A DNA stretch of 59,878 nucleotides. Source: an uncultured Alphaproteobacteria bacterium (GTDB lineage Bacteria > Pseudomonadota > Alphaproteobacteria > RF32 > CAG-239). Position 1 is the stretch's first letter. The number at the start of each line of letters is the position of its first letter. Positions 1,511 to 1,655 of this stretch are shown here, in pieces. A program made the position numbers and the translations under genes. Location: contig CALXTJ010000003.1 of NCBI GenBank assembly GCA_944391375.1, forward strand, positions 1-59,878, in the 5' to 3' direction. Below the pieces are notes generated by a model. That model searched no databases, was not told the DNA's origin, and saw only the letters and a list, made by a program, of their open reading frames with translations.

Positions 1511-1655
1511 GCCACAGTTATCGGACTTACGGGGGCAAGTAAGTCCGGCGACAGAGCCAAGCGAAGTTTGGCTAGGGAGAGCAAGCGAAGCGAGAACCGA
1601 AGGTTTGCATGGTGGCTTAAGCCGCACGCACAAGCTTACTAGCGGCACCTTTTTT
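1511..1655. other. GC-rich multi-hairpin element with three GAA triloops
   Basis: GCCAC/GTGGC closing pair; CGGACTTAC/GTAAGTCCG; AGCCAAGC-GAA-GTTTGGCT; GC-GAA-GC; AACC-GAA-GGTT; GCCGC/GCGGC followed by a T run. Confidence 0.65.

What the first reader, a model, noticed from the sequence alone, without database searches (positions are those of the whole stretch)
1511..1655. Cloverleaf-like hairpin cluster with three GAA triloops, possibly a single-stranded DNA signal
Seen: a GC-rich island in AT-rich DNA, closed by GCCAC/GTGGC, with C-GAA-G triloop hairpins including exact GCGAAGC. Established: d(GCGAAGC) is an unusually stable DNA mini-hairpin and such loops occur in ssDNA origins and priming signals. 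Inference: a relic single-strand origin, transfer origin or MITE/REP-like end of a mobile element, consistent with the nearby Fic gene and gene fragments. A small RNA is the alternative.
Basis: partly seen in the sequence, partly recalled or inferred. Interest (0 to 1): 0.55.

Follow-up and report, generated by a model that had tools for sequence, protein, structure and literature searches.

The report
tRNA-linked structured insert beside island junction
The GC-rich hairpin cluster is one copy of a previously undescribed kind of small structured element that sits behind many tRNA genes of uncultured gut Alphaproteobacteria, lodged in the T-loop of a spare copy of the tRNA's 3' end; here a serine-recombinase island carrying the Fic gene has cut it off from its tRNA-Thr.

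Summary
The hairpins and the GC island (52% against 20-35%) are real. Two details fail in relatives: the GCCAC/GTGGC closing stem is not conserved, and only one of the three GAA loops is.

There is no Rfam match. BLAST finds a single copy in this genome.

In relatives the element follows an intact tRNA-Thr(GGT). The order is: terminator, decayed inverted copy of the tRNA 3' end, hairpin H1, GC-rich body, direct repeat of the tRNA 3' end, second terminator.

The same architecture follows at least 8 other tRNA genes in this genome. Controls gave 1/825 and 0/33.

A sister body type is inserted exactly between T-loop nucleotides 57 and 58, behind at least five different tRNAs. It shows strong compensatory covariation on the tRNA-sense strand.

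In the window the tRNA is missing. Upstream lies the right end (attR) of a large-serine-recombinase island whose cargo here is Fic.

Best reading: a tRNA-linked miniature element whose sense strand, most likely as RNA, is under structural selection. What moves it is unknown. An ssDNA origin is unlikely.

Another reader of this scan had noted an inverted tRNA 3' pseudo-copy beside tRNA-Lys in the same genome.

The parts
78..1262 (-). Fic/DOC-family protein gene, cargo of the island remnant upstream of the element
   Evidence: 394-aa ORF. Pfam Fic_N 8e-27 and Fic 4e-22.
1355..1468 (-). Start-less conserved reading frame (WCTILCDYRTKNYENFKDLGKKIELFEDN...). Inferred to be the C-terminal tail that a large serine recombinase ORF gains when the island is excised (attP state).
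   Evidence: The same frame occurs at 22 island right ends. Mean pairwise differences by codon position are 0.46/0.40/0.58. Intact recombinase ORFs end ...DKWC| at the same TGGTGC.
1439..1468 (+). Pseudo tRNA 3' end, AGTCCGAT-N16-GCACCA: the island-side (P) arm of attR
   Evidence: Conserved at 24 loci. In G103 it closes a roughly 9-kb island that starts with the recombinase gene at tRNA-Thr.
1463..1470 (+). GCACCATT, the core shared by the empty site, attL and attR; the crossover lies within it
   Evidence: Empty site in G092, attL in G103, attR in G103 (unit E7).
1465..1505 (.). Terminator 1: an 18-bp palindromic hairpin with A-run and T-run, bidirectional. It is the native terminator of tRNA-Thr(GGT).
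   Evidence: Terminator scan. It directly follows the intact tRNA in G005, G034, G092 and G104.
1506..1521 (+).
   Evidence: In G132 the same spacer matches the reverse complement of the tRNA 3' end at 21 of 26 positions (sequence, unit E18, compared by eye). Own-genome His and Asp modules show the same by eye, and tRNA-Lys by alignment.
1522..1547 (+). Hairpin H1: inverted T-arm copy (CGGACTTAC), loop GGGGGCAA, then direct copy of the T-stem 5' strand and T-loop nt 1-4 (GTAAGTCCG)
   Evidence: 9 pairs, 94% of cells paired in 11 copies. The GC/AU swap tracks the tRNA T-stem variant.
1548..1634 (+). GC-rich body (type 1) with hairpins H2 (1556-1572), H3 (1581-1608) and H4 (1607-1629)
   Evidence: 11 copies: 94.6% of cells paired; 6 pairs with compensatory change against 2.0 in shuffles. 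The plus strand folds better than the minus strand. No Rfam match.
1635..1649 (+). Direct repeat of the tRNA-Thr(GGT) 3' end (CTTACTAGCGGCACC), a possible secondary attB
   Evidence: Identical to the tRNA 3' end in G034 and G104, and it follows each host's own tRNA variant. Cassettes lie after this copy in G005 and G084.
1662..1686 (+). Terminator 2
   Evidence: Terminator scan. Conserved with G114 and G092.

Best explanation
Positions 1505-1655 are the native 3' flank of a tRNA-Thr(GGT) gene in a family of uncultured gut and rumen Alphaproteobacteria.

The module reads, in order:
- the tRNA's terminator;
- an inverted, decaying copy of the tRNA's last ~30 nt;
- a direct spare copy of the same tRNA 3' part;
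- a small GC-rich structured element, about 87 nt, lodged in or at the T-loop of that spare copy;
- a second terminator.

It is one member of a multi-copy class of such tRNA-linked elements. They are found behind many tRNA genes in this genome and across the family.

Shown here:
- the architecture;
- its recurrence behind other tRNAs;
- the exact T-loop 57|58 junction for the sister (type 2) body;
- presence/absence polymorphism;
- sense-strand structural covariation.

Inferred:
- The bodies are non-autonomous mobile inserts that home to the T-loop of spare tRNA 3' copies.
- Their selected form is the tRNA-sense single strand, most likely RNA made by read-through from the tRNA gene.
- The inverted copy arose by fold-back template switching at the terminator hairpin.
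- The repeated tRNA 3' end plus terminator serves as an extra landing site for serine-recombinase islands.

In this window such an island, or its remnant with Fic as cargo, has integrated between the tRNA's CCA end and terminator 1. The module now follows the island's attR, and the tRNA lies beyond the contig start.
For: Context in relatives:
- An intact tRNA-Thr(GGT), then the terminator, then the element ending in the tRNA's 3' end.

Own-genome survey:
- 7 of 25 tRNA genes with at least 300 nt of downstream sequence, plus Asn-GTT on a short contig, have their own last 13 nt repeated 200-315 nt downstream.
- Controls: 1/825 with other tRNAs' ends, and 0/33 upstream.
- Each module shows an inverted tRNA 3' copy just after the terminator.

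Type 2 body:
- It is flanked by TTCG|...|AATC (TCCG|...|ATTC behind Thr-GGT) behind Asn, Thr-GGT, Arg-TCT, Gln-CTG and Ser-GCT, and behind a probable tRNA-Leu 3' end in another family.
- 47 of 121 family genomes carry it.
- 98.2% of cells are paired. Compensatory cells number 59 against 16.4 in shuffles, and 0 of 500 shuffles reach that.

Type 1 (the window's own type):
- 6 compensatory pairs against 2.0 in shuffles.

Strand:
- The sense strand folds better: alifold -39.7 vs -30.7 for type 1, and -15.7 vs -4.0 for type 2.

Gain and loss:
- The tRNA-Asn site is empty in G008 and filled in G000 and G001. G003 and G007 carry the inverted copy and the start of a type 2 body, continued by other sequence.

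Island:
- In G103 a recombinase with Resolvase, Recombinase and zinc-ribbon domains abuts tRNA-Thr, and the island ends in the pseudo-3' end followed by terminator 1 and the element.
- The core GCACCATT is shared by the empty site, attL and attR.
Against: - No promoter-like site flanks the element, and a strong terminator precedes it. Expression is therefore unproven.
- Type 1 was seen only behind tRNA-Thr(GGT). Its right junction lacks T-loop nt 5-7, so T-loop homing is shown for type 2, not for the window's own body.
- The covariance model of type 2 does not detect type 1. The link between the two rests on shared architecture and a short alignment.
- Covariation in type 1 is modest: the covariation score is reached by 14 of 500 shuffles.
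- No mobilising enzyme was found.
- A related body family occurs in both orientations relative to the tRNA. This sits badly with obligatory co-transcription.
- The tRNA-Asn site is empty in G008, so at least that module is dispensable.
Confidence: 0.55

Rival explanations
1. Neutral scar. The module is debris from fold-back duplications at tRNA terminators and from decayed tRNA-integrating elements. It has no function of its own and is neither mobile nor expressed.
For: - The inverted acceptor copy is decaying.
- The Thr-CGT module in G092 lacks a body, and in G114 it is eroded.
- tRNA-Lys has only the inverted copy.
- The tRNA-Asn site is empty in G008.
- The module lies in a patch of gene fragments.
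Against: - About 52% GC is maintained in a 40% GC genome.
- Hairpins are kept through compensatory changes.
- The same body recurs at an identical T-loop position behind at least five different tRNAs.
- The tRNA 3' repeats are exact for 14-21 nt.
Confidence: 0.2
2. Single-stranded DNA signal (single-strand origin, oriT or transposon-end hairpins), used when the flanking island or another element moves as ssDNA.
For: - The structure is strand-specific.
- GNA-type loops can form very stable DNA mini-hairpins (PMC13037366).
- The element adjoins an island junction.
- Clean insertion without target duplication resembles ssDNA (HUH-type) transposition.
Against: - GAA loops are not conserved.
- GCGAAGC is not enriched.
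- The element differs more between G103 and G129 (89.5% identity, with a different terminator 1) than their recombinase genes do (96%). This places it outside the island.
- It is present where no island is.
- Y1 transposases occur in only 42 of 121 genomes and never beside the bodies.
- No Rep or relaxase is apparent among the neighbouring ORFs.
Confidence: 0.08
3. Recombination-site module. Hairpin H1 and the repeated tRNA 3' end exist as double-stranded binding and landing sites for the serine recombinases that target tRNA-Thr. The GC-rich body is only filler.
For: - The motif AGTCCGAT recurs in the tRNA arm (11 nt from GCACCA), in the island arm (16 nt from GCACCA), in both arms of H1, and twice in the recombinase 3' coding end.
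- Cassettes alternate with element copies.
- Cassettes lie after the repeated 3' end in G005 and G084.
Against: - H1-type hairpins and bodies also follow tRNAs for which no such island was seen.
- Serine integrases, from general knowledge, need only about 40-50 bp.
- Compensatory changes and G-U pairs in the body point to a single-stranded form.
Confidence: 0.12

Closest known systems
E. coli tyrT-distal tRNA-linked repeats / rtT RNA (Rfam RF00391)
   Same: - Non-coding units directly 3' of a tRNA gene.
- Each unit ends in a copy of about 19 nt of the tRNA's 3' end including CCA.
- Units can be tandem (G130, L063).
- Thought to be released from the tRNA operon transcript; for rtT see bioRxiv 10.1101/2024.07.17.603846, the rest is my own knowledge.
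   Different: - No sequence or structure match to RF00391.
- Here a terminator separates the tRNA from the unit.
- An inverted tRNA 3' copy precedes the unit.
- The body sits in the T-loop of the spare copy.
- The class is spread over many tRNA species.
MITE / REP (REPIN)-type miniature non-coding elements
   Same: - Small, GC-rich, hairpin-forming and non-coding.
- Multi-copy at family level.
- Presence/absence polymorphism, and nested or composite copies.
   Different: - No target-site duplication.
- The ends are copies of the neighbouring tRNA, not element-specific inverted repeats.
- Strict tRNA 3'-flank location.
- No linked RAYT/Y1 transposase.
attL/attR duplications of tRNA 3' ends by integrative elements, and cis-mobilisable (CIME-like) remnants
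   Same: - Direct repeat of the tRNA 3' part starting in the T-loop.
- Arrays of units accreted at one tRNA.
   Different: - The unit is only about 150-250 bp.
- It carries no integrase.
- Its interior is under structural, not coding, constraint.
- The overlap sequence is not duplicated at the two junctions.
Large serine recombinase islands (for the flank) and integration-dependent gene truncation as in mycobacteriophage BPs/Brujita or the SSV1 int gene
   Same: - The recombinase has Resolvase, Recombinase and zinc-ribbon domains.
- A short common core is shared between the sites.
- attP lies inside a gene, so that integration changes the gene's 3' end.
   Different: - Here it is the serine recombinase's own C-terminal tail that would change.
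- I know of no described case.
- The point is not tested experimentally.

Membership tests
rtT RNA / tRNA-linked repeats | Lies 3' of a tRNA gene and ends in a copy of the tRNA's 3'-terminal sequence | tested here: met
   Met in relatives. In the window the 15-nt copy is at 1635-1649, but the tRNA itself is displaced.
rtT RNA / tRNA-linked repeats | Match to the Rfam covariance model RF00391 | tested here: not met
   No match at E up to 1 in window 1-6000 or in 11 other module loci.
rtT RNA / tRNA-linked repeats | Released by processing of the tRNA operon transcript | not testable with these tools
   No expression data are available. A terminator lies between the tRNA and the unit.
Single-strand origin / oriT | Belongs to a replicon or transferable element with a Rep or relaxase gene | tested here: inconclusive
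   ORFs within 7 kb are Fic, an epimerase-like protein, a membrane protein, an HD protein and TrpRS. Only Fic was run against Pfam. The element lies outside the island.
Single-strand origin / oriT | Conserved hairpin loops or nick motif | tested here: not met
   GCGAAGC is kept in 5 of 11 copies and the third GAA loop in 3 of 11.
MITE / REPIN | Many near-identical copies dispersed in the genome | tested here: not met
   Type 1 is single-copy by BLAST in the own genome. Only the architecture recurs. Type 2 is multi-copy in some relatives.
MITE / REPIN | Target-site duplication and element-specific terminal inverted repeats | tested here: not met
   The T-loop is split cleanly (TTCG|body|AATC) and the flanks are tRNA-derived.
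MITE / REPIN | Cognate transposase (RAYT/Y1) in the genome, linked by shared ends | tested here: not met
   Y1_Tnp is found in 42 of 121 genomes. None of the 30 Y1 loci examined (29 listed plus the own genome's) carries a body beside the gene; two show single short motif matches. The own-genome copy has unrelated ends.
Large serine recombinase island (upstream flank) | Recombinase with Resolvase, Recombinase and zinc-ribbon domains at one end | tested here: inconclusive
   Met in G103 and, at over 85% identity, in about ten further genomes of several genera. Not found in the own genome or the window. The window starts inside the island.
Large serine recombinase island (upstream flank) | Short common core at empty site, attL and attR | tested here: met
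   GCACCATT is present in G092 (empty site), G103 attL and G103 attR, and at window 1463-1470.

The most novel reading that the evidence does not exclude
Three linked proposals:
- A previously undescribed class of miniature structured elements homes to position 57|58 of the T-loop in fold-back copies of tRNA 3' ends.
- These inserts yield tRNA-tailed chimeric RNAs behind a large share of a genome's tRNA genes.
- The repeated tRNA ends double as landing pads for serine-recombinase islands, and the recombinase itself swaps its C-terminal tail between the integrated and excised states.
Probability: 0.3. Interest if true: 0.8.

Novelty: new variant of a known kind. Interest (0 to 1): 0.6.

Why it matters
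tRNA genes are the classic landing sites of mobile DNA, but the DNA just behind them is rarely examined.

- **A third of the tRNA genes are affected.** In this genome about a third of those that could be examined carry the same elaborate 3' module. Its insert keeps its structure through compensatory changes.
- **If the insert is an RNA,** it is a new, abundant non-coding RNA family of an uncultured gut lineage.
- **If it is a mobile element,** its clean T-loop targeting without any identified enzyme points to an unknown mobilisation route.
- **The flank may show a new switch.** It suggests a serine integrase whose C-terminus depends on integration state, which could be a simple directionality switch of interest to those who engineer integrases.

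Tried and rejected
- **tRNA or tmRNA.** ARAGORN finds nothing in 1-6000. An alpha-type tmRNA is present elsewhere, on contig C41.
- **Known RNA families.** No Rfam match in the window or in 11 other modules.
- **Repeat within the genome.** BLAST finds one copy.
- **Small ORFs across the element** (1484-1696 minus strand, 1509-1781 plus strand). Not conserved in homologues, because indels occur in the body.
- **Mini-ORF after the GGAGG of terminator 1.** The frame is not conserved between copies, judged by eye.
- **IS200/IS605-derived element.** Y1 transposases are sporadic and unlinked.
- **Retroelement primed by the tRNA.** No reverse transcriptase in the genome.
- **Xer/dif-type site.** No convincing dif-like site; the best match has 7 mismatches.
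- **Genome-wide AGTCCGAT motif.** 36 occurrences against 34 expected.
- **Recombinase remnants in the window.** tblastn finds none.
- **Type 1 as a detectable homologue of type 2.** The covariance model R1 does not find it.
- **More type 1 copies from metagenomes.** Only one true hit.
- **attP-like sequence in viral contigs.** No hit.
- **Prior description.** Five literature searches found none.

Full report
**1. Observation**

- GC reaches 0.52 in 1490-1629, against 0.19-0.36 on either side.
- There are three C-GAA-G turns and one exact GCGAAGC, at 1585-1591.
- The plus-strand minimum-energy fold has the GCCAC/GTGGC closing stem.
- The fold is only marginally better than shuffles on either strand (z about -1.9).
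- GCGAAGC is not enriched in the window: 2 found, 5.7 expected.
- ARAGORN finds no tRNA or tmRNA in 1-6000.
- Rfam gives no match over the element.
- BLAST finds no second copy in the 1.33-Mb, 73-contig genome.

**2. What relatives show**

Record titles place the lineage among uncultured gut and rumen Alphaproteobacteria MAGs.

In G005 and G034 the homologous element lies immediately 3' of an intact tRNA-Thr(GGT). It follows a long palindromic terminator, and it ends with a direct repeat of the tRNA's 3' end followed by a second terminator. The same is seen in G092, G091, G104, G132 and others.

The repeat follows each host's own tRNA variant (CTTACTAG, CTTGCCAG or CTTACTGG).

Hairpin H1 is an inverted copy of the T-arm paired with a direct copy of the T-stem 5' strand plus T-loop nt 1-4. 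The spacer between terminator 1 and H1 is a decayed inverted copy of the acceptor 3' strand. In G132 it matches at 21 of 26 positions (sequence, compared by eye).

The module is therefore: terminator, inverted tRNA 3' part, direct tRNA 3' part interrupted by a GC-rich body, terminator.

**3. It is one of a class**

In the window's own genome, 7 of the 25 tRNA genes with enough downstream sequence have their own last 13 nt repeated 200-315 nt downstream. Asn-GTT, on a short contig, does too. The controls were 1/825 with other tRNAs' ends and 0/33 upstream.

Each of these modules has:
- the terminator;
- an inverted tRNA 3' copy;
- a GC-rich body;
- an exact 14-21-nt repeat;
- usually a second copy of the same terminator.

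Relatives show the same architecture behind Thr-TGT (two tandem units). They also show it behind Thr-CGT (no body) and Arg-ACG (two tandem units).

Bodies fall into types that cross tRNA identities.
- **Type 2.** It was first seen behind Thr-GGT in G034 and sits behind Asn-GTT in this genome. It is found in 47 of 121 family genomes.
  - It lies behind Asn, Thr-GGT, Arg-TCT, Gln-CTG and Ser-GCT, and behind a probable tRNA-Leu 3' end in a genome of another family.
  - It is always on the tRNA's strand.
- **Junctions of type 2.** They are ...TTCG|GAGYGG...GGGAGTRCCC|AATC... (TCCG|...|ATTC in Thr). That is exactly between T-loop nt 57 and 58, with no duplication.
- **Gain and loss.** Within the window's genus the tRNA-Asn site is empty in G008 and filled in G000 and G001. 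G003 and G007 carry the inverted copy and the start of a type 2 body, continued by other sequence.

**4. Structure and strand**

*Type 2 (29 copies).*
- 98.2% of cells are paired.
- 11 of 21 pairs carry compensatory changes.
- Compensatory cells number 59 against 16.4 in shuffles; 0 of 500 shuffles reach that.

*Type 1, the window's type (11 copies).*
- 94.6% of cells are paired.
- 6 pairs carry compensatory changes against 2.0 in shuffles.
- The covariation score is only modestly above shuffles: 14 of 500 reach it.

*Strand.* Both types fold better on the tRNA-sense strand. Consensus energies are -39.7 vs -30.7 and -15.7 vs -4.0, and G-U pairs are conserved.

The other two are lost in most type 1 copies.

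*Link between types.* The type 2 covariance model does not detect type 1. An alignment suggests that type 1 is related to a third body family (GCGACAGCGACC core). That family lies behind His, Arg-ACG and Ser-GCT, and in the opposite orientation behind Leu-CAG and Ser-CGA.

**5. Why the tRNA is missing here**

Upstream of terminator 1 the window has AGTCCGAT-N16-GCACCA (1439-1468). This is a pseudo tRNA 3' end that is conserved at 24 loci.

In G103, tRNA-Thr(GGT) is followed directly by a 526-aa large serine recombinase gene on the opposite strand (Pfam Resolvase, Recombinase and Zn_ribbon_recom). Its 3' end runs into the tRNA. About 9 kb later, after an AAA_21 ATPase gene and a partner gene, the island ends in the pseudo-3' end. 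Terminator 1 and the element follow.

G092 shows the empty site. The sequence shared by the empty site, attL and attR is GCACCATT.

Recombinases more than 85% identical occur in about ten further genomes of several genera, always abutting tRNA-Thr. C-terminal fragments of them are common relics.

The element and terminator 1 differ more between G103 and G129 (89.5% identity, and a different terminator) than their recombinase genes do (96%). This places the element outside the island.

I therefore read the window as an island, or its remnant, with Fic as cargo, followed by attR, terminator 1 and the element. The island's left end and the tRNA lie beyond the contig start. No tRNA-Thr(GGT) is assembled, and no recombinase remnant is found in the window.

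Other cassettes bounded in the same way carry a restriction-modification-like gene pair (named from the start of the sequences, not run against Pfam), a lipoprotein-like ORF, or a glutamine-amidotransferase-like gene and an HD gene.

**6. Mechanism**

Shown: the architecture, its recurrence, the precise T-loop junction for type 2, gain and loss, and sense-strand structural constraint.

Inferred:
- The inverted copy arose by fold-back template switching at the terminator hairpin.
- The spare direct copy offers a harmless T-loop target.
- The bodies are non-autonomous inserts.
- Their selected form is single-stranded, most likely RNA from read-through of the tRNA terminator.
- The repeated 3' end plus terminator acts as a second attB.

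Against expression:
- A strong terminator lies upstream and there is no promoter-like site.

Against mobility by a known route:
- The genome holds only XerC/D-like tyrosine recombinases and one unrelated serine recombinase.
- Y1 transposases are sporadic and unlinked.
- There is no reverse transcriptase.

**7. Comparison with known systems, and verdict**

The nearest known things are:
- the E. coli tyrT-distal repeats / rtT RNA: same position and same tRNA 3'-end tail, but no model match;
- MITE/REPIN elements: same size and hairpins, but no target duplication, tRNA-derived ends and no linked transposase;
- att duplications left by integrative elements.

None fits fully. The ssDNA-origin reading is not supported. 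The small-RNA alternative and the "end of a mobile element" context are partly right.

I rate this a new variant of known kinds, of moderate to high interest. The mobilising mechanism and the expression of the element remain open.

Noticed in passing
window 1355-1468 (-); L074:10774-12354 (-); L075:5660-5689: The serine recombinase ORF ends inside the tRNA when integrated (...DKWC|R...). After excision it would read on into a conserved tail of about 30 aa (WC|AILCDYRTKNYEDFK.L..KIELF). The tail has no start codon of its own, and its codon positions vary as in coding sequence. This could be an integration-state switch of the enzyme's C-terminus.
   Followed up: partly
window 1439-1446 and 1463-1468; tRNA-Thr 3' ends in L007, L008, L016: The motif AGTCCGAT lies 11 nt from GCACCA in the tRNA (attB arm) and 16 nt from it in the island arm (attP arm). 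From memory, serine-integrase attP and attB half-sites differ by a 5-bp shift of this kind.
   Followed up: no
L074:10902-10953; L041:2823-2874; L009:1301-1350 and 2482-2531: An inverted pair AGTCCGAT-N36-ATCGGACT at fixed spacing lies in the 3' coding end of the recombinase gene. It survives as a relic at the left end of many recombinase-less cassettes.
   Followed up: partly
L041:2964-7394 and L042:2600-7030: A cassette of about 5 kb with a putative DNA methylase/restriction-subunit pair (named from the start of the sequences, not run against Pfam) is flanked by two nearly identical copies of the element in G129 and G084. In G103 the cargo is an AAA_21 ATPase (470 aa) plus a 226-aa protein with no Pfam match, possibly a defence pair.
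   Followed up: partly
G000 contigs: C6:13620-14010, C8:28350-28730, C11:7940-8430, C17:18300-18700, C30:13800-14170, C40:2700-3110, C43:4280-4680, C70:3440-3776: Eight other tRNA genes of this genome carry the same kind of 3' module: Ala-GGC, Ser-CGA, Arg-ACG, Ser-GCT, His-GTG, Asp-GTC, Leu-CAG and Asn-GTT. Several bodies contain an internal terminator-like hairpin, and one body family occurs in both orientations.
   Followed up: partly
whole genome G000: No tRNA-Thr(GGT) or tRNA-Thr(TGT) gene is assembled; only Thr(CGT) is present. The window's contig starts inside the island, probably because the repeats broke the assembly.
   Followed up: no
window 1519-1649 versus L007, L021, L029: The window's element is 80-86% identical to copies in other genera, but only 61% identical to the copy in same-genus G005. 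This hints at horizontal exchange of the tRNA-Thr flank.
   Followed up: no
G000:C60:140-180: A terminator hairpin is built from the same motif (AAAAAAAGTCCGATAATTGCTTATCGGACTTTTTTT), at a locus unrelated to tRNA-Thr.
   Followed up: no
G000:C73:193-621: An IS200-type Y1 transposase gene (142 aa) with its own CCCCC/GGGGG end hairpins sits next to helicase/restriction-like gene fragments. It is unrelated to the tRNA modules.
   Followed up: partly
L153 (G178:C124:2502-2574): A short type 2 body lies behind a probable tRNA-Leu 3' end (ARAGORN called no tRNA there) in a genome assigned to another family. That genome has 6% contamination, so this may be either a contaminant contig or a wider distribution.
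   Followed up: no
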